Part shown: piece after piece, positions 688-18,100 of the stretch
Position numbering within the stretch: position 1 is the stretch's first letter
Layout of the letters: each line of letters starts with the position of its first letter
UHGV virus genome: UHGV-0199914
Strand: one strand, 5' to 3'
Source: a virus
Length of the DNA stretch: 18,100 nucleotides
Notes under the pieces: model-generated
Database searches by the model: none
The model's input: the letters and a program-made list of their open reading frames with translations, nothing else
What the model was told of the DNA's origin: nothing
Position numbers and translations under genes: made by a program

Positions 688-1117
688 TGCCGTCACGGTG
701 CTGAAAACTAACCCCGATATGCTGCGGATATTCGTGGATAACGGGAGTATTGCCTCCACGCTGGCGGCGTCGCTGTCATTCGAAAAGCGTTACACGCTCA
801 ATGTCATTGTGACCGACTTTACCGGTGATTTTGACCTGCTCATCGTGCCGGTGCTGGCGTGGCTGCGGGAAAATCAGCCCGACATCATGACCACCGACGC
901 AGGCCAGAAAAAGGGCTTCACGTTTTATGCAGACATCAACAATGACAGCAGCTTTGATATCAGCATCAGCCTGATGCTGACCGAGCGCACGCTGGTCAGT
1001 GAGGTGGACGGCGCACTGCATGTGAAGAATATCCCGGAACCCCCGCCGCCGGAGCCGGTCACCCGCCCGATGGAGCTTTATATCAATGGCGAACTGGTGA
1101 GCAAGTGGGATGAATGA
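650..1117 (+). CDS. R: tail completion protein R
   Basis: 155 aa, located immediately after the spanins. Sequence (MLKPDSLRRALTDAVTVLKTNPDMLRIF...) recognised as P2 gpR. AGGA lies 9 nt upstream of the ATG. Confidence 0.85.
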   Translation: MLKPDSLRRALTDAVTVLKTNPDMLRIFVDNGSIASTLAASLSFEKRYTLNVIVTDFTGDFDLLIVPVLAWLRENQPDIMTTDAGQKKGFTFYADINNDSSFDISISLMLTERTLVSEVDGALHVKNIPEPPPPEPVTRPMELYINGELVSKWDE

Positions 1118-1559
1118 GTTTAAGCGTTTTGAAGACCGACTGACCGGACTGATTGAGTCGCTGTCACCGTCAGGGCGTCGGCGACTGAGTGCAGAACTGG
1201 CGAAACGTCTGCGGCAGAGTCAGCAGCGCCGGGTGATGGCACAGAAAGCCCCGGATGGCACACCCTATGCGCCACGCCAGCAGCAGAGCGCCAGAAAAAA
1301 GACCGGTCGCGTTAAGCGAAAAATGTTTGCGAAACTTATCACCAGTCGTTTTTTGCATATCCGCGCCAGCCCGGAACAGGCATCAATGGAGTTTTACGGC
1401 GGAAAGTCACCGAAAATCGCCAGTGTGCATCAGTTCGGTCTGTCGGAAGAAAACCGGAAAGACGGTAAGAAAATTGATTATCCGGCGCGTCCTCTGCTCG
1501 GCTTTACCGGTGAGGATGTGCAGATGATTGAAGGGATTATCTCTAACCATCTAGAATAA
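1110..1559 (+). CDS. S: tail completion / virion morphogenesis protein S
   Basis: 149 aa, start overlaps the R stop (ATGAATGA). Sequence recognised as P2 gpS-like and the synteny fits. Confidence 0.85.
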   Translation: MNEFKRFEDRLTGLIESLSPSGRRRLSAELAKRLRQSQQRRVMAQKAPDGTPYAPRQQQSARKKTGRVKRKMFAKLITSRFLHIRASPEQASMEFYGGKSPKIASVHQFGLSEENRKDGKKIDYPARPLLGFTGEDVQMIEGIISNHLE

Positions 1560-1608
1560 AAACATAGTTAATCATCATTGGTGAAATCATTAGGGGGGCA
1601 ATCGCTTG

Positions 1609-1640
1609 TTGACTTGAAAATCGCGAAAAAAAATATTATA
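1609..1640 (+). promoter_or_regulatory. candidate sigma70 promoter for the cargo gene (-35 TTGACT 1609-1614; -10 TATTAT 1634-1639, 19-nt spacer)
   Basis: Consensus -35 hexamer and a 5/6 -10 hexamer in the AT-rich S/V intergenic region about 35 nt upstream of the 1675 ATG. RBS AAGGGA sits 6-7 nt before the ATG. The spacer is longer than optimal. Confidence 0.35.
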
Positions 1641-1674
1641 GATCATCTTTTTACACTAATCTTAAAGGGAATAT

Positions 1675-3201
1675 ATGCGCGAACCAGTGTATTTAGAAGA
1701 TGTCTTTAAACTTTCGGGTATCCCGACAATTACTTTTGTTGAACCTAACGAGTATAAACACCTCTATGTGTCGATAAGAACAGCGGGAAGAGGGGTAATT
1801 ATTGAAGGGCCATCAGGTATAGGGAAGACGACTTGCGTAAGACAGGTTATTGAAAAGTTAAAATTCGAGACCAGTAGTCGGATAATTAAAGAGTTTAAAG
1901 TATTGTCTGGAAGGAAAAAGGAAGATAAAGCCCAGATTGAAAATATAATAACAACGAGTGGTTTCGGTGGGGTGATTATTGATGATTTTCATAAGTTAGA
2001 TGATGAGTTGAAGCATAAAATATCTGACTTGCTGAAAAATTTAGCGGATGAACAACCCTTAGATTCTAAGTTGATTATTATAGGTATAAATAAAACAGGC
2101 AAATCACTGATTGATTTATCACCGGATTTACTAAATCGAATCTCCATTGTTAAATTTGAGTCCAATCCGGAATATAAGGTCAGGGAGTTGCTAGAAAAAG
2201 GTGAGAATGCGCTTAATTTCAAACTAAATGTAAAAGAAGATATTGTAAAGGACTCGGATGGGGCATTTCATCTGGCGCAAATGTTGGCTTATAATGCTTG
2301 TTTACAGGCTGATATCACAGAAGAGTTAGAATCTCCTCGGGAAACAAATATTAGCTATGAATCACTTAAAGAAACAGTGATTCAGGATCTTAGCTATAGA
2401 TTCAATGATATAGTCGTTCGCTTTGTGAAAGGCCAGCGGGTTAAAAAGGGTAGTAGAGCTCCATATCTCCACGTTTTATATTGGTTATCTAAAGAAGATG
2501 AGCGTTCTTTAAATTTGACAAGTTATTTAATTAACAATCCTAATCATCGTAATAGCGTTGGGCAAATTCTGACGCGAGGCCATTTAAAAACGCATTATGA
2601 GAGCAATCCTGATTTTTCGGATGTTATTCATTATAATGATGAAACTACGGAGATTTCAATCGAAGATCCCAAGTTTTATTATTATATAAAGAATTTGTTA
2701 TGGAGCAAGCTTGCGGAGAAGATAGGTTTCACATCATTTGAGTTTAAGTCGAAATATGACTTTGCTTTATCATTTGCTGGAGCTAATAGAAATCATGCGG
2801 AGTATTTAAATCAAAAGCTGATTGAGAATGAGTTATCTGTTTTTTATGATTTCAATGAGCAGGCCAGAATACTTTCTGAAGATGTAGAACAATATCTTGC
2901 TCCAATTTATAGGAGTGAGTCTGTTTTTGTAATTCCGTTTTTGAGTAGGGATTATCCAACTAGAATATGGTGCAAATTTGAAGGTGATACATTTAGGGAT
3001 AGATTTGGTGATGGGTGTGTTATTCCTTTAAGATATAGTGATGCACCTGTTGGCATGTTTGATACTGCCAATGGCATTGGAGGTTTTACCATAAATCCTA
3101 GTGAGGATATATACGCACAGCTAGATACATTTGCAAACTTGCTTGTTGAAAAAATATGTGAAAAAAGAATGCTCTTAAATGGAAAAGAGAATGAGGAATA
3201 A
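1675..3201 (+). CDS. P-loop NTPase fused to a C-terminal TIR-like domain; candidate single-gene anti-phage defence protein (cargo at the P2 orf30 position)
   Basis: 508 aa. Walker A GPSGIGKTT at nt 1807-1833 and Walker B VIIDD at nt 1972-1986, followed by DFHKLD (STAND/NB-ARC-like hhhhDD kinase-2 pattern). The C-terminal part (about aa 360-490, nt 2752-3140) carries TIR hallmarks: FALSFAG (betaA), SVFYDF, SESVFVIPFLSRDY, and TRIWCKFE with a Glu at aa 436 (nt 2980-2982) in the position of the TIR catalytic Glu after the conserved WC. The gene is about 32% GC against about 50% for flanking tail genes, and has its own promoter-like sequence and RBS. Confidence 0.8.
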   Translation: MREPVYLEDVFKLSGIPTITFVEPNEYKHLYVSIRTAGRGVIIEGPSGIGKTTCVRQVIEKLKFETSSRIIKEFKVLSGRKKEDKAQIENIITTSGFGGVIIDDFHKLDDELKHKISDLLKNLADEQPLDSKLIIIGINKTGKSLIDLSPDLLNRISIVKFESNPEYKVRELLEKGENALNFKLNVKEDIVKDSDGAFHLAQMLAYNACLQADITEELESPRETNISYESLKETVIQDLSYRFNDIVVRFVKGQRVKKGSRAPYLHVLYWLSKEDERSLNLTSYLINNPNHRNSVGQILTRGHLKTHYESNPDFSDVIHYNDETTEISIEDPKFYYYIKNLLWSKLAEKIGFTSFEFKSKYDFALSFAGANRNHAEYLNQKLIENELSVFYDFNEQARILSEDVEQYLAPIYRSESVFVIPFLSRDYPTRIWCKFEGDTFRDRFGDGCVIPLRYSDAPVGMFDTANGIGGFTINPSEDIYAQLDTFANLLVEKICEKRMLLNGKENEE

Positions 3202-3218
3202 CACACAAAATATGCTGT

Positions 3219-3236
3219 TGTGTCAGCTATAGTACA
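3219..3236 (+). promoter_or_regulatory. TGT-N12-ACA dyad (Ogr/Delta-type late-activator site pattern) upstream of V
   Basis: TGT at 3219-3221 and ACA at 3234-3236 with a 12-nt spacer, matching the P2 late-promoter upstream element pattern. The geometry relative to the V start at 3284 is tighter than the usual dyad centred near -55, so assignment is tentative. Confidence 0.3.
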
Positions 3237-3283
3237 TAATGGGAGGTTTGCCGTGCTGCTTTCTTGGCGGCATCCTTCCCGTT

Positions 3284-3919
3284 ATGAACACTCTCGCAAA
3301 TATTCAGGAACTCGCGCGCGCACTGCGCAACATGATTCGTACCGGCCTTGTCGTCGAAACCAACCTTAAAGCCGGTCGCTGCCGTGTGCAGACCGGTGGC
3401 ATGTGCACCGACTGGCTTCAGTGGCTGACCCATCGTGCCGGACGTTCGCGCACATGGTGGGCACCTTCCGTGGGGGAACAGGTGCTGATTCTGGCTGTGG
3501 GCGGTGAACTCGACACGGCGTTCGTTCTGCCGGGGATTTATTCCGGCGATAACCCCGTGCCGTCTGCGTCGGCGGATGCCCTGCATATCCGTTTCCCTGA
3601 CGGGGCGGTGATTGAGTATGAACCCGAAACCAGTTCACTGACGGTAAGCGGAATTAAAACGGCCAGCGTGACGGCTTCTGATTTTGTTACTGCCACGGTG
3701 CCGGTGGTCACGGTGAAAGCATCAACCCGCGTCACCCTGGACACACCGGAGGTGGTCTGTACCAACAGGCTGATTACCGGCACGCTGGAAGTGCAGAAGG
3801 GCGGGACGATGAGCGGCAACATTGAACACACCGGCGGTGAACTCTCATCAAACGGTAAGGTACTGCATACCCATAAACACCCCGGCGACAGCGGCGGCAT
3901 AACCGGGAGTCCTTTATGA
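3284..3919 (+). CDS. V: baseplate spike / assembly protein V
   Basis: The ORF is open from 3239, but the recognisable gpV sequence begins at the internal ATG 3284 (MNTLANIQELARALRNMIRTG...), giving 211 aa, the size I recall for P2 gpV. The 15 upstream codons (MGGLPCCFLGGILPV) look like intergenic read-through. Confidence 0.8.
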   Translation: MNTLANIQELARALRNMIRTGLVVETNLKAGRCRVQTGGMCTDWLQWLTHRAGRSRTWWAPSVGEQVLILAVGGELDTAFVLPGIYSGDNPVPSASADALHIRFPDGAVIEYEPETSSLTVSGIKTASVTASDFVTATVPVVTVKASTRVTLDTPEVVCTNRLITGTLEVQKGGTMSGNIEHTGGELSSNGKVLHTHKHPGDSGGITGSPL

Positions 3920-4267: not shown

Positions 4268-5176
4268 ATGCCGATTATCGACCTGAACCAGCTACCCGCA
4301 CCGGATGTGGTCGAGAAGCTGGACTTTGAAACCATTCTCGCTGAACGCAAGGCGACACTGATTTCCCTTTACCCGGAAGACCAGCAGGAGGCGGTCGCCC
4401 GTACCCTGACGCTGGAATCTGAGCCTCTCGTCAAACTGCTGGAGGAAAATGCTTATCGTGAGCTTATCTGGCGTCAGCGTGTGAATGAGGCCGCACGGGC
4501 GGTGATGCTGGCCTGTACCGCCGGTAATGACCTTGATGTGATTGGTGCCAATTACAACACCACGCGCCTGACTATCACCCCGGCAGATGATTCGACCATT
4601 CCGCCGACACCGGCAGTGATGGAATCTGACACCGATTATCGTCTGCGTATTCAGCAGGCTTTTGAGGGCTTAAGCGTCGCCGGGTCGGTGGGAGCCTATC
4701 AGTATCATGGTCGCAGTGCCGACGGGCGTGTCGCGGATATCTCTGTCACCAGTCCGTCTCCGGCCTGCGTCACTATCTCTGTGCTGTCACGTGAAAATAA
4801 CGGTGTGGCATCCGAAGACCTGCTGGCGGCGGTGCGTAACGCCCTTAATGGCGAGGACGTCAGGCCGGTGGCCGACCGCGTGACCGTGCAGTCTGCCGCC
4901 ATTGTTGAATACCAGATAAACGCCACGCTTTACCTTTACCCTGGTCCCGAAAGCGAACCCATCCGCGCTGCCGCCGTGAAAAAACTGGAAGCGTACATCA
5001 CGGCACAGCACCGGCTGGGGCGCGACATCCGTCTGTCTGCCATTTATGCCGCTTTGCATGTGGAAGGCGTGCAGCGTGTCGAACTGGCTGCACCGCTGGC
5101 CGATATCGTGCTTAACAGCACGCAGGCGTCTTTCTGTACCGAATACCGCGTCGTGACCGGAGGCTCGGATGAGTGA
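4268..5176 (+). CDS. J: baseplate protein J (gp6-like)
   Basis: 302 aa, immediately after W, matching P2 gpJ in size and synteny. Confidence 0.85.
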   Translation: MPIIDLNQLPAPDVVEKLDFETILAERKATLISLYPEDQQEAVARTLTLESEPLVKLLEENAYRELIWRQRVNEAARAVMLACTAGNDLDVIGANYNTTRLTITPADDSTIPPTPAVMESDTDYRLRIQQAFEGLSVAGSVGAYQYHGRSADGRVADISVTSPSPACVTISVLSRENNGVASEDLLAAVRNALNGEDVRPVADRVTVQSAAIVEYQINATLYLYPGPESEPIRAAAVKKLEAYITAQHRLGRDIRLSAIYAALHVEGVQRVELAAPLADIVLNSTQASFCTEYRVVTGGSDE

Positions 5177-5709: not shown

Positions 5710-7575
5710 ATGAGCACAAAATTCAGAACCGTTATCACCACTGCCGGTGCAGCAAAGCTGGCAGCGGCAACCGCACCGGGAGGGCGGAAGGTCAACATTA
5801 CCACGATGGCCGTCGGGGATGGCGGTGGTAAATTGCCTGTCCCGGATGCCGGACAGACCGGGCTTATCCATGAAGTCTGGCGACATGCGCTGAACAAAAT
5901 CAGCCAGGACAAACGAAACAGTAATTATATTATCGCAGAGCTGGTTATTCCGCCGGAGGTGGGCGGTTTCTGGATGCGTGAGCTTGGCCTGTACGATGAT
6001 GCGGGAACGTTAATTGCTGTGGCGAACATGGCTGAAAGTTATAAGCCTGCCCTTGCCGAAGGCTCAGGGCGTTCGCAGACCTGCCGCATGGTCATCATCG
6101 TCAGCAGTGTGGCCTCAGTGGCGCTGACCATTGACACCACAACGGTGATGGCAACGCAGGATTACGTTGATGACAAAATTGCAGAGCACGAACAGTCACG
6201 ACGTCACCCGGACGCCTCGCTGACCGCAAAAGGTTTTACTCAGTTAAGCAATGCGACCAACAGCACGTCTGAAACACTGGCCGCAACGCCGAAAGCGGTA
6301 AAGGCCGCCTATGACCTGGCTAACGGGAAATATACTGCACAGGACGCCACCACCGCGCGAAAAGGCCTTGTTCAGCTCAGTAGTGCGACTAACAGCACGT
6401 CTGAAACGCTCGCCGCAACGCCAAAAGCAGTAAAGACCGCCTATGACCTTGCTAACGGGAAATACACTGCACAGGATGCCACCACAGCGCGAAAAGGGCT
6501 TGTTCAGCTCAGTAGCGCCACCAACAGTGATTCGGAAACGCTGGCCGCAACACCAAAAGCGGTGAAGTCTGCCTATGACAATGCTGAAAAACGTCTTCAG
6601 AAAGATCAAAATGGCGCGGATATTCCTGATAAAAGATTATTCCTGCGCAATATTGGAGCAACAAATTCAACAACCATGTCTTTTAGTGGTGGTACAGGAT
6701 GGTTCAGGCTGGCAACTGTAACCATGCCACAGGCCAGTTCCGTGGTTTACATAAGTCTGATTGGTGGTGCTGGATATAATGTTAACTCCCCTATGCAGGC
6801 TGGTATATCTGAACTTGTTCTTCGTGCGGGAAATGGAAATCCAAAAGGTCTTACTGGTGCGTTATGGCGACGGACATCGGTTGGATTTACTAATTTTGCA
6901 TGGGTGAATACATCCGGTGATACCTATGATGTTTATGTTGAAATAGGTAATTACGCCACAGGTGTTAATATTCAGTGGGATTATACCAGTAACGCCAGCG
7001 TAACGATTCATACATCACCATCTTATACAGCGAATAAACCAACAGGCCTGACAGATGGAACTGTATATGTAATTTACAGTTCGCACATTAAACCGACTGC
7101 TGCTGATGTTGGGGCGTTGTCATTATCTGGAGGTCAATTGAATGGTGCACTGGGCATCGGAACATCCAGTGCTCTTGGCGGTAACTCGATTGTTTTGGGT
7201 GATAATGACACGGGCTTTAAACAAAATGGCGACGGTAATCTGGATGTTTATGCTAATAACGTCCATGTTATGCGCTTTGTCTCCGGTAGCATTCAAAGTA
7301 ATAAAACCATAAATATTACGGGGCGTGTTAATCCCACAGATTACGGTAACTTTGATTCCCGCTATGTCCGGGATATCCGGCTTGGTGGTGCTGCCACATA
7401 CAAACCTGCGAACAATGGCATGACATGGACACATCAGGCACCGTCCGGGTGTATATATTCCGGCATTATTGTTCAGGATACCGGCTCAAACTCTGCCGAT
7501 AACATTGGTGGCGTATATTACAGACCGGTTCAGAAATACATTAACGGGACATGGTATAACGTGGCACAGGTATAA
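5710..7575 (+). CDS. H: tail fibre protein H (mosaic: conserved N-terminus, tandem fibre repeats, divergent low-GC distal domain)
   Basis: 621 aa. N-terminus MSTKFRTVITTAGAAKLAAATAPGG is typical of P2-type gpH. It contains three tandem copies of a 44-aa fibre repeat, and composition shifts to AT-rich from about 6600 onward. Confidence 0.85.
   Translation: MSTKFRTVITTAGAAKLAAATAPGGRKVNITTMAVGDGGGKLPVPDAGQTGLIHEVWRHALNKISQDKRNSNYIIAELVIPPEVGGFWMRELGLYDDAGTLIAVANMAESYKPALAEGSGRSQTCRMVIIVSSVASVALTIDTTTVMATQDYVDDKIAEHEQSRRHPDASLTAKGFTQLSNATNSTSETLAATPKAVKAAYDLANGKYTAQDATTARKGLVQLSSATNSTSETLAATPKAVKTAYDLANGKYTAQDATTARKGLVQLSSATNSDSETLAATPKAVKSAYDNAEKRLQKDQNGADIPDKRLFLRNIGATNSTTMSFSGGTGWFRLATVTMPQASSVVYISLIGGAGYNVNSPMQAGISELVLRAGNGNPKGLTGALWRRTSVGFTNFAWVNTSGDTYDVYVEIGNYATGVNIQWDYTSNASVTIHTSPSYTANKPTGLTDGTVYVIYSSHIKPTAADVGALSLSGGQLNGALGIGTSSALGGNSIVLGDNDTGFKQNGDGNLDVYANNVHVMRFVSGSIQSNKTINITGRVNPTDYGNFDSRYVRDIRLGGAATYKPANNGMTWTHQAPSGCIYSGIIVQDTGSNSADNIGGVYYRPVQKYINGTWYNVAQV
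6229..6580 (+). repeat. three tandem in-frame about 132-bp direct repeats inside H (K-G-[FL]-[TV]-QLS-[NS]-ATNS-[TD]-SETLAATPKAVK-x-AYD motif units)
   Basis: Unit 1 at 6229-6360, unit 2 at 6361-6492, unit 3 from 6493 (diverges after about 6580). Units 1 and 2 are near-identical 44-aa blocks ending ...GKYTAQDATTAR. Confidence 0.85.
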
Positions 7576-8106: not shown

Positions 8107-8163
8107 GTTGTATGAGCTCTGGTGTGAGCTGACATATCTATGGCAAAGAGTAAAGCCTAATCT

Positions 8164-8195
8164 GACAGTCCGCTCTGTGCCATGAGCGGACTGTC
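8164..8195. terminator. perfect 12-bp inverted repeat (GACAGTCCGCTC / GAGCGGACTGTC, 8-nt loop); possible terminator between convergent G and the minus-strand cargo gene
   Basis: Stem at 8164-8175 and 8184-8195 read directly from the sequence. No clean U-tract on either strand, so function is uncertain. A second 8-bp palindrome AGATTTAC-GT-GTAAATCT follows at 8203-8220. Confidence 0.35.
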
Positions 8196-8390
8196 AATAA
8201 ACAGATTTACGTGTAAATCTTGAAGCTATACATATTTACTTTCAATGATAAATAAAAGAACCACCCCAAAATCACTGAAAGTATATTTTAACTAACCACC
8301 TGCAACTACTAACATTAATTTCACTCAACCTCAAAGAGTCGTAATTAAAATGATATGTATAGCAATTTGCCTCGATACGAATCATATGAA

Positions 8391-9089
8391 TTATATTTTT
8401 CCATGCTTTTCACCGTCAAATCGAGTCATGCTAGGATCAAGAAAATAAATCAAATCAATTAACGCATGTTGTATTCTGATTAGCCTTTCTTTATAAGGCT
8501 CGATATTTTTTGTCATATTTATCACTTCATTGTTTAAATCTAAAAAAAATGGTTCATTGACAAAGCAATTTTCCTTTGTGAAACCGCCGTAACCTATGCA
8601 ATCAAATCCAGCATCTGTTGATATCAACATCTTTTCCGCAATAGCTCTCTGCTCTCCTATGAAAAACATAAAATACTGACCAAAGGCGTCTGTTTGGATT
8701 AATGAGTTAATATTGTTCTGTAATCTAATAAACTCCCTCATTTTTTTATTTTTTTCTAGACTAAGGTATTGAATGTCTATGCGGGCAGCTTCTGCCCATG
8801 CAAAGAACTGGGAAAAAAGAAAAACCGTATTTTTGATAACATAATCTTGTTGGCGCTTACTCCCATTATGATAAAACTCTTCAATAAACCCTAATTCTAA
8901 TATGTTATAAATGCGGCTTTGTAAGTCTGAAGCTGAGCGAATTAACGGTTCAATATAGTACTGATGTTTTCTCCTTACATCCAGTGTTTCATTGAGCTTG
9001 TTTATTCTATTCTGATTATAGGTAGATATAGCAATAGAGATTATAGATATTGCACCACCAATAAGGCTTGAAATTAATGCCACACTCAT
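8391..9089 (-). CDS. hypothetical membrane-anchored protein, cargo at the P2 Z/fun position; function unknown (candidate defence / exclusion factor)
   Basis: 232 aa on the opposite strand to the tail operons. ATG with AGGA 8 nt upstream. N-terminal single transmembrane helix (SVALISSLIGGAISIISIAISTY), then a roughly 210-aa domain without motifs I recognise. Sits in an island of about 30% GC. Confidence 0.7.
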   Translation of the reverse strand: MSVALISSLIGGAISIISIAISTYNQNRINKLNETLDVRRKHQYYIEPLIRSASDLQSRIYNILELGFIEEFYHNGSKRQQDYVIKNTVFLFSQFFAWAEAARIDIQYLSLEKNKKMREFIRLQNNINSLIQTDAFGQYFMFFIGEQRAIAEKMLISTDAGFDCIGYGGFTKENCFVNEPFFLDLNNEVINMTKNIEPYKERLIRIQHALIDLIYFLDPSMTRFDGEKHGKI

Positions 9090-9911
9090 CTAAAAGTCCT
9101 TTGATTTTCTTGGTTAACAAAATGACATGGTTTTATTTAATGTCGCAGCAACTTAATAATACACCATGATATGATTATTATGGTGTGATTTTTTGCATCT
9201 GTAATCCATTACAAACAGATGCAAGGTATAACTTGTCTATTTTCAGTCAGAAAATTCGTAAACATCCAAAGTAGCCTCATCAAACTCTTAAAATTCTATA
9301 CATTTGAGTGTAAAGATTTTAAATCCAGCTGCATGGTATCGACTCATGTTTATTATATTTTTTATTTGTAATTAAAGGTTGCATTATTTTCGATAATAAA
9401 TCATCGCAAGATTGAAATATGATTTCACTTGATGCAATGTTTCATGTGGCCCAGCGATTTGAGTTACACCCAGCTGTACGGGTAATATAAATCAAATTGA
9501 TGAACTTTTGATACACTCCTCTCTCTTCATTACTTTATGTTTTTGCTCTCAAAAATATCTTGCTCTCTGAAAATTATTCTTTAAGTTCAAAGTCGAGGAC
9601 TGCATGAGTGTTAGATACAAAGCTAATATGTTGAAATGTTTTTCATCTCCCCATAACGGCATTATTATCTAAAATATTTACACAAATATAGAATCACCCC
9701 TTTAACGTAAACTAGGAATCAAGTTAACACCATTATATATATCATAAACATGATATTTTGTATATTTTTATCATTTAGCCTTGATTGTACAGGGCGTACT
9801 CTCAACGAAGTAGGGAAAGTCTGTTTTTCGCTCAAAGCTGGCTGTCAGATTTGATAGCATTTGGGCTATGTAAATTGTCAGTTGGAGAATGAGGGAGTAA
9901 AAATCAGGACA

Positions 9912-9938
9912 GGCGGGCGAATTGCCCGCCTTTTCTTT
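9912..9938 (+). terminator. rho-independent terminator (stem GGCGGGC / GCCCGCC, loop GAATT, then TTTTCTTT)
   Basis: GC-rich 7-bp stem at 9912-9918 and 9924-9930, immediately followed by a T-rich tract at 9931-9938 on the + strand. Located at the boundary between the AT-rich island and the FI upstream region. Confidence 0.6.
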
Positions 9939-9944
9939 ATCTGT

Positions 9945-10007
9945 TGTTTCATCCACTGACCAGCCAGGTCAAATAGCGTCTCATGTACTACCCAACGGAA
10001 AATAGTT
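9945..10007 (+). promoter_or_regulatory. candidate late promoter for FI: imperfect dyad TGT-N12-CCA at 9945-9962 and -10-like AATAGT at 10002-10007
   Basis: Partial match to the TGT-N12-ACA late-promoter element, centred about 55 nt upstream of a plausible start site about 25 nt before the FI ATG. One mismatch in the dyad; geometric inference only. Confidence 0.3.
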
Positions 10008-10034
10008 GCACCCATTAACCACGGAGTTAAACGG

Positions 10035-11225
10035 ATGAGTGACTATCATCACGGCGTGCAGGTGCTGGAGATTAACGACGGCACCCGCGTCATTTCCACC
10101 GTATCCACTGCCATTGTCGGCTTGGTCTGCACGGCCAGCGATGCGGATGCGGAAACCTTCCCCCTCAATAAACCTGTGCTGATTACCAATGTGCAGAGTG
10201 CAATTGCAAAGGCTGGTAAAAAAGGCACGCTGGCGGCATCGTTGCAGGCCATCGCCGACCAGTCAAAACCGGTCACCGTTGTCGTGCGTGTGGAAGACGG
10301 CACCGGCGACGACGAGGAAACGAAACTCGCGCAGACCGTTTCCAATATCATCGGCACCACTGACGAAAACGGTCAGTACACCGGACTGAAAGCCCTGCTG
10401 GCGGCGGAGTCGGTAACCGGTGTTAAGCCGCGCATTCTCGGTGTGCCGGGACTGGACACCAAAGAGGTTGCCGTCGCACTGGCATCAGTCTGTCAGAAGC
10501 TGCGCGCTTTCGGGTATATCAGCGCATGGGGCTGTAAAACCATTTCCGAGGTGAAAGCCTACCGCCAGAATTTCAGCCAGCGTGAGCTGATGGTCATCTG
10601 GCCGGATTTCCTCGCATGGGATACGGTTGCCAGTACCACCGCCACCGCGTATGCCACCGCCCGTGCGCTGGGTCTGCGCGCTAAAATCGACCAGGAGCAG
10701 GGCTGGCATAAAACTCTGTCCAACGTCGGGGTAAACGGTGTTACCGGCATCAGCGCATCTGTATTCTGGGATTTGCAGGAGTCCGGCACCGATGCTGACC
10801 TGCTTAACGAGTCAGGCGTCACAACGCTGATTCGCCGCGACGGTTTCCGCTTCTGGGGTAACCGTACCTGCTCTGATGACCCGCTGTTCCTCTTTGAAAA
10901 CTACACCCGCACTGCGCAGGTGCTGGCCGACACGATGGCTGAGGCGCACATGTGGGCTGTGGATAAGCCCATCACCGCAACGCTGATTCGCGACATCGTT
11001 GACGGCATTAATGCCAAATTCCGTGAGCTGAAAATAAACGGCTATATCGTGGATGCGACCTGCTGGTTCAGCGAAGAATCCAACGATGCGGAAACCCTCA
11101 AGGCCGGAAAACTGTATATCGACTACGACTATACACCGGTGCCTCCTCTCGAAAACCTGACCCTGCGCCAGCGTATTACCGATAAATACCTGGCAAATCT
11201 GGTCACTTCGGTTAACAGCAATTAA
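10035..11225 (+). CDS. FI: contractile tail sheath protein FI
   Basis: 396 aa, GGAG 9 nt upstream, followed by the tube gene; sequence recognised as P2 gpFI-like. Confidence 0.9.
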   Translation: MSDYHHGVQVLEINDGTRVISTVSTAIVGLVCTASDADAETFPLNKPVLITNVQSAIAKAGKKGTLAASLQAIADQSKPVTVVVRVEDGTGDDEETKLAQTVSNIIGTTDENGQYTGLKALLAAESVTGVKPRILGVPGLDTKEVAVALASVCQKLRAFGYISAWGCKTISEVKAYRQNFSQRELMVIWPDFLAWDTVASTTATAYATARALGLRAKIDQEQGWHKTLSNVGVNGVTGISASVFWDLQESGTDADLLNESGVTTLIRRDGFRFWGNRTCSDDPLFLFENYTRTAQVLADTMAEAHMWAVDKPITATLIRDIVDGINAKFRELKINGYIVDATCWFSEESNDAETLKAGKLYIDYDYTPVPPLENLTLRQRITDKYLANLVTSVNSN

Positions 11226-16337: not shown

Positions 16338-16418
16338 TGTTTTTATTTTATCTGTTTGTTTTATAAGGATAAATTAACTAAAATGGCACCGTCAACAAAA
16401 CCGGAAGAGGTGCTCGCG

Positions 16419-16637
16419 ATGTTTCATTGTCCTTTATGCCAGCATGCCGCACATGCGCGTACAAGCCGCTATATCACTGACACGACAAAAGAGCGTTATC
16501 ACCAGTGTCAGAACGTGAATTGCAGCGCCACGTTCATCACTTATGAGTCGGTACAGCGATACATCGTGAAGCCGGGAGAAGTCCACGCCGTAAGACCGCA
16601 CCCGTTGCCGTCAGGGCAGCAAATTATGTGGATGTAA
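16419..16637 (+). CDS. ogr: late gene transcription activator Ogr (zinc-finger)
   Basis: 72 aa from the internal ATG 16419 (MFHCPLCQHAAHARTSRYITDTTKERYHQCQNVNCSATF...), with the Cys4 pattern CxxC...CxxxxC. GAGG lies 8 nt upstream. The track ORF starts further upstream at a TTG (16356), which I consider spurious. Confidence 0.85.
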   Translation: MFHCPLCQHAAHARTSRYITDTTKERYHQCQNVNCSATFITYESVQRYIVKPGEVHAVRPHPLPSGQQIMWM

Positions 16638-16649
16638 TTACAAACAGGA

Positions 16650-16674
16650 AGCCCCTCAGTCGAGGGGCTTTTTT
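16650..16674 (+). terminator. rho-independent terminator after ogr (AGCCCCTC-AGTC-GAGGGGCT then TTTTTT)
   Basis: Perfect 8-bp GC-rich stem with a 4-nt loop, followed by a T-run, 13 nt after the ogr stop. Confidence 0.8.
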
Positions 16675-16738
16675 GTCGATGTGGTCAATGTGTGGACGTG
16701 ACCAGAAATAAATCCTTTTATTTCATTGTATTACGCGT

Positions 16739-16765
16739 AAAAAATAAGCCCGTGTAAGGGAGATT
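16739..16765. other. probable attR core (AAAAAATAAGCCCGTGTAAGGGAGATT), prophage/host junction
   Basis: Matches the 27-bp P2 att core as I remember it. Lies just past ogr, the last gene at the right prophage end, and coincides with the terminator end of cyaR. Exact boundaries are not verifiable without the attL copy. Confidence 0.5.
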
Positions 16766-16825
16766 ACACAGGCTAAGGAGGTGGTTCCTGGTACAGCTAG
16801 CATTTTATGGGTTATGTTTTTCAGC
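16739..16825 (-). ncRNA. cyaR: CRP-activated Hfq-dependent sRNA CyaR (RyeE)
   Basis: The reverse complement reads GCTGAAAAACATAACCCATAAAATGCTAGCTGTACCAGGAACCACCTCCTTAGCCTGTGTAATCTCCCTTACACGGGCTTATTTTTT, which I recognise as E. coli CyaR, including the CCUCC-containing seed loop and a terminator hairpin with a U-run. It lies between yegQ and ogr, as in E. coli K-12 (yegQ-cyaR-ogrK). Confidence 0.75.
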
Positions 16826-16859
16826 GAAACGGATGATAACCTTAATAAATACAGCTGTA

Positions 16860-16875
16860 TGTGATCGGTTTCTAA
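16860..16875 (-). promoter_or_regulatory. candidate CRP half-consensus site (TGTGA-N6-TCTAA) at class II spacing upstream of cyaR
   Basis: TGTGA at 16860-16864 and a degenerate second half at 16871-16875. Centre is about 42 nt upstream of the inferred cyaR 5' end (16825). A -10-like TATCAT (minus strand) lies near 16831-16836. Confidence 0.35.
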
Positions 16876-16909
16876 GAATTTTCCATCCGGGAAAAATAAT
16901 CGAAATTAA

Positions 16910-18100
16910 TCACTTACCGTGGGGATTACGCGTGGTTTCCCCGGAGAAATTACGCATCAGCAGCGCGTAATTGAGCTCAAGATCCTGCGGGACCGGGAGC
17001 CACACAGTATAACCATCGCCTGGTGCTATCGGCATAGCTTCGCCTTTGGCGTTTTCCATGTGCTCAAGGGTAAAATTAATGTTGCCTTGCGGCGTCATCA
17101 GCTCAAGGCTGTCGCCAACGGAGAATTTATTTTTCACCGCTACCGCCGCGAGGTCCCCCTTGCGCTCACCGGTAAACTCACCAACAAACTGCTGGCGGTC
17201 AGAAACTGAATAACCGTATTCGTAGTTCTGATAATCGTCGTGAGTATGACGACGCAGGAAACCTTCGGTATAGCCACGATGCGCCAGACCTTCCAGAGTT
17301 TCCAGCAGGCTGGTATCGAACGGTTTTCCCGCAGCGGCGTCATCGATAGCTTTGCGGTAAACCTGTGCGGTGCGTGCACAATAGTAGAAAGATTTGGTAC
17401 GACCTTCGATTTTCAGCGAATGCACGCCCATTTTGGTCAGGCGTTCTACATGGGCGATGGCGCGCAGATCTTTCGAGTTCATGATGTAAGTGCCGTGCTC
17501 ATCTTCAAACGCGGTCATATACTCGCCCGGACGCTGGGCCTCTTCGATCATAAACACTTTGTCGGTTGGTGCGCCGATACCCAGCGTCGGCTCAACATTT
17601 TGCACCGGAATCGGCTCGTACTTGTGTACGATGTTGCCAACATCATCTTCTTTCCCTTCCTGGACGTTGTACTCCCAGCGGCAGGCGTTGGTGCAGGTGC
17701 CCTGGTTCGGGTCGCGCTTGTTGATATAGCCAGAGAGCAGGCAGCGACCGGAGTAGGCCATGCACAGCGCGCCGTGAACGAAGATCTCGATCTCCATATC
17801 CGGCACCTGATTGCGGATCTCTTCAATCTCTTCCAGCGACAGCTCGCGAGAGAGGATCACGCGGGTCAGGCCCATTTGCTGCCAGAATTTCACCGTCGCC
17901 CAGTTCACGGCGTTAGCCTGCACCGAAAGGTGGATCGGCATTTCAGGGAAGTGCTCACGCACCAGCATAATCAGCCCTGGATCGGACATAATCAGCGCAT
18001 CCGGCCCCATTTCCACCACCGGTTTCAGGTCACGGATAAAGGTTTTCAGCTTGGCGTTGTGCGGTGCAATGTTGACCACGACATAAAACTTTTTCCCCAG
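16910..18100 (-). CDS. yegQ: host peptidase U32-family protein YegQ (partial; N-terminus beyond the window edge)
   Basis: The minus-strand ORF is open to the window edge (...LGKKFYVVVNIAPHNAKLKTFIRDLKPVVEMGPDALIMSDPG...). Sequence recognised as E. coli YegQ; about 55% GC, host-like. The GTG at 18077-18079 used by the ORF track is internal, not the true start. Confidence 0.85.
   Translation of the reverse strand: MGKKFYVVVNIAPHNAKLKTFIRDLKPVVEMGPDALIMSDPGLIMLVREHFPEMPIHLSVQANAVNWATVKFWQQMGLTRVILSRELSLEEIEEIRNQVPDMEIEIFVHGALCMAYSGRCLLSGYINKRDPNQGTCTNACRWEYNVQEGKEDDVGNIVHKYEPIPVQNVEPTLGIGAPTDKVFMIEEAQRPGEYMTAFEDEHGTYIMNSKDLRAIAHVERLTKMGVHSLKIEGRTKSFYYCARTAQVYRKAIDDAAAGKPFDTSLLETLEGLAHRGYTEGFLRRHTHDDYQNYEYGYSVSDRQQFVGEFTGERKGDLAAVAVKNKFSVGDSLELMTPQGNINFTLEHMENAKGEAMPIAPGDGYTVWLPVPQDLELNYALLMRNFSGETTRNPHGK

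What the first reader, a model, noticed from the sequence alone, without database searches (positions are those of the whole stretch)
1560..3283. AT-rich single-gene cargo at the S/V junction encoding a P-loop NTPase fused to a TIR-like domain: candidate compact anti-phage defence system
Seen in sequence: a 1.7-kb island of about 32% GC (19 of 60 G+C at 2041-2100) sits between tail genes S and V, which are about 50% GC (30 of 60 at 4321-4380). It has its own sigma70-like promoter (TTGACT at 1609, TATTAT at 1634) and RBS. The 508-aa product has Walker A GPSGIGKTT (aa 45-53) and Walker B VIIDD followed by FHKLD (aa 100-109), resembling the STAND/NB-ARC P-loop and kinase-2 motifs. The C-terminal 130 aa or so show the TIR signature: FALSFAG (aa 363-369), SVFYDF, SESVFVIPFLSRDY, and TRIWCKFE with Glu436 where the TIR catalytic Glu sits. 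Established knowledge: the S/V junction is where P2 carries the non-essential acquired gene orf30; P2-like prophages carry variable anti-phage cargo at such sites; bacterial TIR domains act as NAD+-cleaving effectors or signal generators (Thoeris, CBASS, SPARTA, Avs). Inference: this is a one-protein defence module in which an NTPase sensor or switch controls a TIR NADase, like an NLR with domain order inverted and no repeat sensor. I cannot tell from sequence alone whether it belongs to a catalogued family.
Basis: partly seen in the sequence, partly recalled or inferred. Interest (0 to 1): 0.9.

Follow-up and report, generated by a model that had tools for sequence, protein, structure and literature searches.

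The report
Prophage ATPase–TIR candidate defence gene
A P2-like prophage carries, between two tail genes, a foreign AT-rich gene for a single protein that joins an ATP-driven switch to a TIR (NAD-cleaving) domain; it very likely defends the host cell against other phages, but nobody appears to have tested it.

Summary
A 35.5% GC island (about 1542-3265) lies between P2 genes S and V, which are about 55% GC. It holds one 508-aa ORF (1675-3201, + strand) with the motifs at the stated residues.

The gene stands alone, with no conserved neighbour in 80 loci. It is patchily spread across bacterial phyla and two archaeal genome bins, and its GC lies below its flanks in 76 of 80 loci. It occupies the same S/V slot in divergent P2-like phages. 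Its ATPase module recurs fused to TIR, SIR2, SEFIR, DUF4062 and phosphoesterase domains.

It belongs to no catalogued defence family; PADLOC PDC-S59 gives only a partial 68-bit match. I found no experimental report.

Verdict: a credible, untested, compact NTPase-TIR defence gene, and a new variant of a known kind. Interest is moderate (0.5), not 0.9.

The parts
1542..3265 (.). Replaced AT-rich segment (cargo cassette) between the 3' end of gene S and the P_V promoter of gene V
   Evidence: Similarity to other P2-like phages stops at about 1541-1545, so the last ~5 codons of S differ. Strong similarity resumes at 3266. GC is 35.5% against about 55% in the flanks. No flanking direct repeats.
1609..1639 (+). 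Sigma-70-like promoter candidate (TTGACT ... TATTAT)
   Evidence: Present as described. Such matches are not enriched over shuffles (8 against 6.0 +/- 2.5). An ATTATAG -10-like element is kept in the 83%-identical homologue locus L090.
1665..1669 (+). Shine-Dalgarno AAGGG, 5 nt before the ATG
   Evidence: Read from the sequence. TAAAGGGAAT is conserved upstream of the homologues in L090 and L092.
1675..3201 (+). 508-aa AAA+/STAND-like ATPase-TIR protein (WP_047644722.1, annotated 'AAA family ATPase')
   Evidence: ORF; annotation in NZ_CP134805; AlphaFold2 model with pLDDT 88.7 and pTM 0.83.
1780..2163 (+). AAA+ alpha/beta ATPase core (aa 36-163). Walker A 1807-1833, Walker B 1969-1986, sensor-1 Asn139 codon 2089-2091, box VII Arg155 codon 2137-2139.
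2164..2724 (+). Helical lid (aa 164-255) and winged-helix-like domain (aa 256-350)
2746..3198 (+). TIR domain (aa 358-508) ending in a long C-terminal helix; catalytic Glu436 codon 2980-2982
3219..3236 (+). TGT-N12-ACA box, probable Ogr activator site of the late promoter P_V; marks the right edge of the cargo
   Evidence: Its centre lies 56 bp upstream of the V ATG at 3284. In P2 the annotated activator site is centred 55.5 bp upstream of the leaderless V start. Function is inferred by position.
1110..1559 (+). Gene S (virion morphogenesis), left anchor of the slot
   Evidence: Pfam Phage_tail_S 5.6e-44; 97-98% DNA identity to Wphi and P2 R/S.
3284..3919 (+). Gene V (baseplate spike), right anchor of the slot
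   Evidence: Pfam Phage_base_V and Phage_spike; annotation.

Best explanation
The island is a one-gene anti-phage module carried as a moron (accessory cargo gene) by a P2-like prophage. It sits in the permissive gap between the end of the O late operon (gene S) and the Ogr-dependent V promoter.

The protein has four parts: an AAA+/STAND-like ATPase core, a lid, a winged helix and a C-terminal TIR domain.

Proposed mechanism:
1. In the resting lysogen the protein sits as an inactive, nucleotide-bound monomer or low oligomer.
2. A cue from an infecting phage is sensed by the ATPase/lid/winged-helix module itself, since there is no repeat sensor domain.
3. Sensing drives ATP-dependent oligomerisation.
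4. Oligomerisation brings the TIR domains together and assembles their composite NADase sites.
5. NAD+ is destroyed and the infected cell stops supporting phage growth (abortive infection).

Shown here: domain identities, intact catalytic residues, stand-alone organisation, horizontal mobility, residence in a phage cargo slot, and modular effector swapping on the same ATPase module.

Inferred: defence function, the trigger, oligomerisation, and NAD+ as substrate.
For: - TIR chemistry: the family profile aligns WTKFE to AbTIR's WTNYE.
- Conservation: K51, D103, N139, R155 and E436 are invariant in 78/78 homologues and D104 in 77/78. Against the 83%-identical homologue dN is 0.11 while synonymous sites are saturated.
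- Stand-alone gene: the largest neighbour cluster occurs in 10 of 80 loci at no fixed position, so TIR must be the effector rather than a signal maker for a linked partner.
- Mobility: 307 species across many phyla plus two archaeal genome bins. GC is below the flanks in 76/80 loci, median -9.3 points. Only 2 of 5426 E. coli genomes carry it.
- Phage cargo: it sits in the same S/V slot in divergent P2-like phages L090, L091, L092 and L002, where gpS is only 42-50% identical. In L098 it sits between the V-like and W-like genes. The P2 S/V gap holds nonessential orf30. P2-like phages are known carriers of defence cargo (PMC9122126, PMC13586616).
- Effector swapping: in 56 larger relatives the same ATPase module (aa 6-355) is fused to TIR_2 (47), TIR (27), Metallophos (14), SIR2_2, SEFIR, DUF4062, PNP_UDP_1, HD-CE, EAD1 and EAD7. 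Their NTPase regions match nSTAND5 (15) and nSTAND3 (7).
- Homology to a defence candidate: PADLOC PDC-S59, 1.5e-19.
- Neighbours: some direct neighbours are defence genes, including type I RM, mad6, SoFic, RT-TIR, RT-protease and caspase.
Against: - There are no experimental data for this protein or family in the searchable literature.
- In the E. coli TIR survey (PMC11350192) 20 of 32 tested TIR loci showed no activity, so a TIR domain alone does not guarantee defence. I cannot tell whether this protein was among the loci tested.
- Defence-island association is only qualitative. Direct neighbours are very mixed and include housekeeping genes such as PolA, Hsp90 and CPSase. Some PADLOC neighbour hits (RTasPolA, PD-T4-6) are probably housekeeping homologues.
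- The protein is unusually well conserved for an immune gene, 43-50% identity across phyla.
- There is no recognisable sensor domain.
- Neither a promoter nor a terminator is demonstrated, so expression in the lysogen is unproven.
- Walker B is DD rather than DE, so the ATPase may bind rather than turn over ATP.
Confidence: 0.65

Rival explanations
1. The TIR domain is a signal generator, as ThsB is in Thoeris. It would make a cADPR-type or other nucleotide signal that switches on an effector encoded elsewhere in the genome, rather than depleting NAD+ itself.
For: Bacterial TIRs can signal (Thoeris; established knowledge, restated in PMC11350192). Relatives P0189, P0194 and P0263 match the PADLOC ThsB model on their TIR parts.
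Against: No conserved partner gene occurs in 80 loci from many phyla. The P2 slot holds this one gene only. A signalling TIR that moves alone between phyla would land without its receptor. This protein does not match ThsB or ThsA models at E < 1.
Confidence: 0.08
2. It is a selfish stabilisation or addiction module, or a lysogen-fitness moron unrelated to phage defence. Examples would be a toxic NADase kept in check by its own ATPase to penalise prophage loss, or a Tcp-like TIR virulence factor acting on eukaryotic hosts.
For: The best Foldseek match of the TIR model is the Brucella virulence TIR BtpA. Other occupants of the S/V slot, including orf30, have no known function.
Against: The family is spread across soil, water and sediment bacteria and two archaeal genome bins, which does not fit a role against animal hosts. 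There is no secretion signal and no partner antitoxin gene. Its relatives carry typical immune effector sets: SIR2, SEFIR, DUF4062 and EAD domains.
Confidence: 0.08
3. It is a defence protein, but the TIR domain does not deplete NAD+. It would instead act on nucleic acids (2',3'-cNMP synthetase or nuclease-like activity, reported for some plant TIRs) or ADP-ribosylate a target, with the ORC/Cdc6-like winged-helix module positioning it on DNA.
For: By fold the ATPase plus winged helix resembles DNA-binding initiators and clamp loaders. R261 is invariant within the conserved GRAPY motif of the winged-helix region, which also holds invariant P263, Y264 and W270.
Against: The closest TIR sequence and structure matches (AbTIR, BtTir, TIR-STING) are NAD+-consuming enzymes. 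The WxxxE Glu that performs NAD+ cleavage is invariant. Sister proteins swap TIR for SIR2 or DUF4062, both NADases (DUF4062 per bioRxiv 10.64898/2026.05.01.722283).
Confidence: 0.1
4. It is a phage replication, packaging or morphogenesis accessory ATPase, that is, a functional part of the P2-like life cycle, with TIR serving only as a protein-interaction scaffold.
For: It lies inside the late gene cluster, on the same strand, with no detected terminator after S. It holds the same slot in divergent P2-like phages. Its fold is ORC/Cdc6/clamp-loader-like.
Against: It is absent from more than 99% of E. coli P2-like prophages, and 36 of 60 sampled S/V junctions are empty. Of 80 genomic homologue loci, 78 have no P2-like tail genes nearby. 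Its composition is foreign. The invariant catalytic Glu argues for an enzyme, not a scaffold. PHROG 6841 carries no assigned function.
Confidence: 0.04

Closest known systems
Avs / TIR-NLR (Rst_TIR-NLR from P4 satellites) / bNACHT: bacterial STAND NTPase immune proteins with a TIR effector
   Same: One polypeptide couples a P-loop NTPase of the AAA+/STAND lineage (NTPase core, helical domain, winged helix) to a TIR effector. They are carried on P2/P4-type mobile elements (PMC9122126). The expected logic is the same: nucleotide-dependent oligomerisation activates TIR.
Larger relatives built as X - [ATPase-lid-WH] - TIR, with NTPase regions matching Pfam nSTAND_NTPase5 / nSTAND3 (no trivial name found)
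   Same: The profile-profile match runs over aa 6-467 (hhalign E 3.5e-90). Motifs are near-identical: SG.P..TFVEP, EGPSGIGKTT, IDDFHRL, GE.ALNI. A C-terminal TIR is present.
   Different: The relatives carry an extra N-terminal effector or adaptor domain (second TIR, Metallophos, kinase, SIR2, SEFIR, DUF4062, EAD) and are 600-2000 aa. The window protein is the stripped-down core. It scores below the nSTAND5 and nSTAND3 cut-offs (19.3 against 34; 18.2 against 27.2).
PADLOC candidate system PDC-S59
   Same: The ATPase, lid and winged-helix regions are homologous (E 1.5e-19, aa 53-337 against profile positions 110-399 of 428). It is also a single-gene candidate.
   Different: The match is partial and weak at 68 bits. 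The profile has no TIR part. Ten relatives score only 31-56 bits. It is a related family, not the same one. PDC-S59 is itself unvalidated, and no paper mentions it.
Stand-alone TIR NADases: AbTIR, BtTir, TIR-STING (Cap12), SpbK, SPARTA TIR-APAZ
   Same: Same TIR fold and WxxxE catalytic motif. By established knowledge, activity in these proteins depends on oligomer or filament formation. SpbK is likewise a mobile-element-borne single protein with a C-terminal TIR that causes abortive infection (PMC12847820).
   Different: Their control domains are a coiled coil, STING, or APAZ/Argonaute, not an ATPase.
ORC1 / Cdc6 / clamp-loader AAA+ ATPases
   Different: Sequence identity is only 11-19%. Walker B is DD rather than DE. 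No initiator-specific insertion is seen, as there is a single helix between strands 2 and 3. The protein is fused to TIR, mobile, and not near replication genes.
P2 morons orf30, fun(Z), old, tin
   Same: Same kind of genomic niche: AT-rich nonessential cargo at fixed gaps in the P2 backbone. This gene sits exactly where P2 has orf30.
   Different: It has no homology to orf30 (BLASTP E 1.5) and lies on the opposite strand. Old is an ABC-ATPase/TOPRIM nuclease, which is a different fold and effector.

Membership tests
TIR domain (Pfam PF13676 TIR_2) | Sequence match to the family model at or above the curated cut-off | tested here: inconclusive
   27.6 bits against a cut-off of 28 for this sequence. 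Most of the 120 listed homologues carry a precomputed PF13676 hit. The family profile hits solved TIR domains at E 3.5e-7 to 1.8e-5.
TIR domain (Pfam PF13676 TIR_2) | Flavodoxin-like TIR fold | tested here: met
TIR domain (Pfam PF13676 TIR_2) | Catalytic Glu of the WxxxE motif needed for NADase activity | tested here: met
   W432-x-x-x-E436 aligns to WTNYE of AbTIR and WTEYE of BtTir. Invariant in 78/78. Enzyme activity itself is not testable here.
AAA+ ATPase | Pfam AAA above cut-off, AAA+ core plus helical lid fold | tested here: met
AAA+ ATPase | Walker A Lys, Walker B acidic pair, sensor-1 polar residue, box VII arginine | tested here: met
   K51, D103, N139 and R155 invariant in 78/78, D104 in 77/78. 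N139 and R155 are assigned by their position after strand 4 and before strand 5 of the model, which is an inference.
STAND NTPases (NB-ARC, NACHT, nSTAND families) | Match to a STAND family model above cut-off | tested here: not met
   nSTAND5 19.3 against 34; nSTAND3 18.2 against 27.2; NACHT 18.5 against 26.7; AAA_16 24.4 against 32.6. Larger relatives do pass: nSTAND5 in 15 of 56 and nSTAND3 in 7 of 56.
STAND NTPases (NB-ARC, NACHT, nSTAND families) | NTPase - helical domain - winged helix core | tested here: met
STAND NTPases (NB-ARC, NACHT, nSTAND families) | C-terminal repeat or other sensor domain (TPR, LRR, WD40) | tested here: not met
   The protein ends with the TIR domain. No repeat families appear in Pfam and none in the model.
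Avs / Rst_TIR-NLR / bNACHT defence systems | Match to the system's protein models; N-terminal effector - STAND - C-terminal sensor order | tested here: not met
   No such PADLOC model matches at E < 1. The domain order is reversed and there is no sensor. DefenseFinder models were not available.
PADLOC PDC-S59 | Near full-length, high-scoring match to PDLC05049 | tested here: not met
   68.4 bits over profile positions 110-399 of 428 and 56% of the protein. Relatives score 31-56 bits. Whether PADLOC's own thresholds would call it could not be checked.
Thoeris | ThsB TIR protein plus a linked ThsA-type effector | tested here: not met
   No ThsA or ThsB model hit. No conserved neighbour in 80 loci. 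It is the single gene in the slot.
P2 orf30 family | Sequence similarity to P2 Orf30 | tested here: not met
   BLASTP E 1.5; opposite strand. Only the genomic position is shared.
Anti-phage defence system (functional class) | Reduces phage plating or growth when expressed | not testable with these tools
   No experimental report found. Support is by context and homology only.

The most novel reading that the evidence does not exclude
The ORC/Cdc6-like ATPase plus winged-helix module is itself the sensor. It would recognise a phage nucleic-acid structure (incoming DNA ends, or replication or packaging intermediates) and polymerise on it in an ATP-dependent, arginine-finger-coupled AAA+ assembly. 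That would make this a minimal DNA-sensing TIR immune receptor working without any repeat domain, and the ancestral core from which the larger TIR-NTPase-TIR and SIR2 proteins were built. Its unusually high conservation across phyla, including two archaeal genome bins, would then reflect recognition of a universal nucleic-acid feature rather than a fast-evolving phage protein.
Probability: 0.15. Interest if true: 0.75.

Novelty: new variant of a known kind. Interest (0 to 1): 0.5.

Why it matters
If it protects, this would be one of the smallest NTPase-controlled TIR immune proteins: 508 aa with no repeat sensor. It is conserved at 43-50% identity from Enterobacterales to Acidobacteriota, Firmicutes and two archaeal genome bins.

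It would offer a simple system for asking how an AAA+/STAND-type switch turns on a TIR NADase, and what such a switch senses when it has no sensor domain.

It would also establish the S/V (orf30) gap as a third defence slot of P2-like phages, beside old/tin and Z/fun. The other unknown occupants of that slot, including orf30 itself, would then become candidate defence genes.

In practical terms, the gene would affect the phage susceptibility of the rare E. coli lineages that carry it.

Tried and rejected
- Literature: searches for PDC-S59, WP_047644722 and 'AAA-TIR'-type terms found nothing. Broader searches returned only related systems.
- E. coli TIR survey (PMC11350192): it lists an 'AAA' domain in one of its nine new TIR systems. 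By elimination that should be a two-protein system. Its supplements are not held, so I could not tell whether this protein was among its 64 clusters.
- Deposited phage genomes: tblastn against 50,697 genomes found no homologue. IMG/VR viral contigs did contain homologues.
- Single-sequence search of PDB sequences gave nothing significant. A family profile was needed.
- Conserved partner gene: searched for and rejected.
- Defence-island enrichment could not be quantified. PADLOC and Pfam summaries of the direct neighbours show a mixed neighbourhood, and some PADLOC hits are probably housekeeping homologues.
- Insertion signature: no flanking direct repeats and no terminator after S or after the cargo. 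A site-specific insertion model is therefore rejected in favour of cassette exchange by recombination in S and the V promoter region.
- Promoter conservation across homologous loci was not convincing.
- dN/dS could not be computed because synonymous sites are saturated.
- Rfam found no RNA family in the island.
- Structural virion component: rejected on occupancy.
Full report
**1. Observation**

The window holds the late region of a P2-like prophage. In order it reads: lysB/lysC, R (650-1117), S (1110-1559), the cargo ORF (1675-3201), V (3284-3919), W, J, I, H, G, a second AT-rich gap, FI, FII, E, T, U, D, ogr, and then host DNA.

- The ORF is 508 aa.
- GC is 35.5% over 1560-3283, against 55.5% to the left and 55-62% in the windows just to the right.
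- TTGACT (1609) and TATTAT (1634) are present. The consensus scan finds 8 promoter-like sites in 1300-3500 against 6.0 +/- 2.5 in shuffles, so in this AT-rich DNA the promoter is plausible but not demonstrated.
- No terminator-like hairpin follows S or the cargo gene.

**2. The slot**

In phage P2 (NC_001895) the S-V gap contains four annotated features:

- the putative O-operon terminator;
- orf30 (261 aa, minus strand, 'nonessential');
- the activator-binding site for the V promoter (P_V);
- a V transcript that starts at the V ATG.

In the window a TGT-N12-ACA box lies at 3219-3236. Its centre is 56 bp upstream of the V ATG, matching the P2 geometry of 55.5 bp. The cargo therefore fills the whole space between the S stop codon and the P_V activator site.

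Similarity to other P2-like phages breaks at about 1541-1545, so the last few codons of S differ. It resumes strongly at 3266. There are no flanking direct repeats. This fits cassette exchange by homologous recombination rather than site-specific insertion.

Among 5426 complete E. coli genomes, about 1560 have these flanks but only 2 carry this cargo. I took an even sample of 60 S/V junctions:

| State of the junction | Count |
|---|---|
| Empty (about 87 bp between S and V) | 36 |
| An insert annotated 'hypothetical protein', mostly orf30-sized | 18 |
| Other single genes of unknown function (4 of the 5 inspected: 246-357 aa, either strand) | 5 |
| Spurious match | 1 |

The inspected occupants have no Pfam or PADLOC match. 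The S/V gap is therefore a real, variable, single-gene cargo site.

**3. The protein**

*Sequence profiles*

- Pfam gives AAA at 29.6 bits (cut-off 21.2) on aa 42-157 and TIR_2 at 27.6 bits (cut-off 28) on aa 363-456.
- A 78-sequence family profile hits solved TIR domains: BtTir at 3.5e-7 and AbTIR at 4.2e-6. The family's WTKFE aligns to AbTIR's WTNYE, which holds the catalytic Glu by established knowledge.

*Predicted structure*

- AlphaFold2 on the family alignment gives a confident model, pLDDT 88.7 and pTM 0.83.
- A separate model of aa 350-508 (pLDDT 83.6) returns bacterial and plant TIR domains as its top Foldseek hits.

*Conservation*

- Invariant in 78/78 homologues: K51 (Walker A), D103 (Walker B), N139 (sensor-1 position), R155 (box VII, arginine-finger position), and W432, K434, F435 and E436 (TIR). 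D104 (Walker B) is invariant in 77/78.
- Against the 83%-identical homologue dN is 0.11 while synonymous sites are saturated, which indicates strong purifying selection.

*Classification of the ATPase*

- The DD Walker B and the pre-Walker 'TFV.P.EY..L' segment are STAND-like, and larger relatives match nSTAND5 and nSTAND3.
- This protein is below every STAND cut-off, and by fold it is nearest to ORC/Cdc6/clamp-loader AAA+ proteins.

**4. Family and context**

- The 90%-clustered database returned 1957 hits. The top 120 are about 500-aa proteins, 47-99% identical over the full length. They come from Serratia, Rahnella, Erwinia, Aeromonas, Pseudomonas, Nitrosomonas, Paenibacillus and many metagenomes.
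- In one-genome-per-species data, 307 species carry a relative. They span Proteobacteria, Bacteroidota, Acidobacteriota, Planctomycetota, Firmicutes, Actinobacteria, Cyanobacteria, Chlorobi and two archaeal metagenome-assembled genomes.
- Clustering all neighbours in 80 loci finds no conserved partner: the largest cluster is in 10 loci at no fixed position.
- The gene's GC is below its flanks in 76 of 80 loci, with a median difference of -9.3 points.
- Direct neighbours are mixed. Some are defence genes (type I RM, mad6, SoFic, RT-TIR, RT-protease, caspase, PDC families). Many are housekeeping genes. Island association is therefore only qualitative.
- In IMG/VR, 23 viral contigs carry a homologue.
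- Three of those contigs hold the identical gene with an identical gpS, but a gpV only 96% identical. This implies a recombination joint to the right of the cargo.
- L090, L091 and L092, and the Erwinia locus L002, are divergent P2-like phages (gpS 42-50% identical). All have the homologue (65-83% identical) in the same S/V slot. In L098 it sits between the V-like and W-like genes.

**5. Wider superfamily**

A full HMMER scan of 1.84 billion cluster representatives finds 238 relatives at E <= 1e-30 and 3852 at E <= 1e-3. Beyond the full-length family, many 600-2000-aa proteins match only aa 6-355, and the match is internal to them. Pfam results on 56 of these:

| Pfam family | Proteins (of 56) |
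|---|---|
| TIR_2 | 47 |
| TIR | 27 |
| nSTAND5 | 15 |
| Metallophos | 14 |
| nSTAND3 | 7 |
| Protein kinase | 3 |
| SIR2_2 | 2 |
| SEFIR | 2 |
| DUF4062 | 2 |
| NACHT | 2 |
| PNP_UDP_1, HD-CE, EAD1, EAD7 | 1 each |

- hhalign aligns the two groups over aa 6-467 at E 3.5e-90.
- Examples are TIR-ATPase-TIR (P0189) and TIR-ATPase-SIR2 (P0196).
- One NTPase module carrying interchangeable NAD+-targeting effectors is the classic signature of prokaryotic immune proteins.
- The window protein is the minimal core of this clade.

**6. Catalogue status**

- PADLOC's only meaningful hit is the candidate PDC-S59: 1.5e-19, 68 bits, covering the ATPase, lid and winged helix only. Ten relatives score 31-56 bits. 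PDC-S59 is a cousin family, not this one.
- PHROG 6841 (unknown function) matches at 3e-87.
- NCBI names the protein 'AAA family ATPase'.
- No paper in the searchable library mentions it.
- Rousset et al. (PMC9122126) validated a TIR-STAND-TPR protein from P4 satellites, which has a different architecture.
- Wang et al. (PMC11350192) found 12 of 32 tested E. coli TIR loci active. Their single-protein systems are TIR-TPR or short TIR-only proteins.

**7. Mechanism**

The best-supported model is an NTPase-gated TIR NADase that causes abortive infection.

- Shown: both folds, intact catalytic residues, a stand-alone gene, mobility, residence in a phage cargo slot, and effector swapping.
- Inferred: the anti-phage role; the trigger, which is probably sensed by the ATPase/lid/winged-helix module since no other domain exists; ATP-dependent oligomerisation; and NAD+ depletion. 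Solved TIR NADases need self-association, by established knowledge.

Because no partner gene travels with the gene, a Thoeris-like signalling role is unlikely.

**8. Verdict**

It is an uncharacterised, compact variant of the known class of NTPase-TIR immune proteins. It is a good candidate for a bench test but not a categorical surprise: interest 0.5.

Noticed in passing
window 8107-10034: There is a second AT-rich island (33.9% GC) between tail-fibre assembly gene G and sheath gene FI, which is the P2 Z/fun cargo site. It holds a 232-aa ORF on the minus strand (8391-9089). The ORF has a hydrophobic N-terminus that looks like a membrane helix, no Pfam match, and a PADLOC hit to RTasTM, a membrane protein associated with defence reverse transcriptases (4.8e-7). 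About 950 bp (9090-10034) have no ORF over 61 aa and no Rfam match. It may be another defence remnant or a new cargo.
   Followed up: partly
L001 (NZ_CP134805) 8258-10477 and 27030-27539, compared with window 8107-10034: The E. coli prophage with the same S/V cargo (99.9% identical) has a 740-aa AAA ATPase at the A-Q (old/tin) hotspot. At the Z/fun site it has an HNH endonuclease, not the window's 232-aa ORF, and its tail fibre differs (673 aa against 621 aa). The same S/V cargo is thus combined with different cargo elsewhere.
   Followed up: no
window 16356-18079: This is the right end of the prophage: ogr (16356-16637, Ogr_Delta zinc finger), the CyaR/RyeE sRNA gene (16742-16827, minus strand, 100.7 bits), then the host U32 peptidase gene trhP/yegQ (16910-18079, minus strand). 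In K-12 the ogrK remnant neighbours the same locus.
   Followed up: partly
window 3015-3027 and 3194-3206: A perfect 13-nt inverted repeat (GTGTGTTATTCCT / AGGAATAACACAC) has arms 166 nt apart, and the second arm covers the stop codon of the cargo gene. It is longer than I would expect by chance in 2 kb. It could form a 3'-end RNA structure in place of a canonical terminator.
   Followed up: no
L084 3684-4424(+), L086 3661-4404(-), L087 3305-4378(-), L083 (P2) 1140-1925(-): Other occupants of the same S/V slot in E. coli P2-like prophages are single genes of 246, 247, 357 and 261 aa (the last is orf30). None has a Pfam or PADLOC match apart from a sub-threshold HNH_5 hint. They are an untested pool of possible defence or other accessory genes.
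   Followed up: partly
L098 9254-12019; L110 7507-13414: In a more distant P2-related viral contig (L098) the homologue sits between the V-like and W-like baseplate genes instead of between S and V. The most divergent homologue (L110, 29% identity, same architecture) is flanked by two proteins of 651 and 494 aa. By eye these look like a TIR-like protein with repeats and an AlbA_2/Schlafen-like protein; neither was scanned.
   Followed up: no
window 5710-7575: The tail-fibre protein H contains three tandem copies of a roughly 45-aa segment (...ATNS.SETLAATPKAVK.AYD.A...), and GC falls to about 43% across its 3' half and gene G. This suggests a recombined host-range module.
   Followed up: no
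window 3239-3283: The mechanical ORF list extends V upstream to an ATG at 3239 (226 aa). RefSeq annotation and the P2 reference both start V at 3284, where the leaderless V transcript begins. The 3239 start would overlap the P_V promoter and is probably not used.
   Followed up: yes
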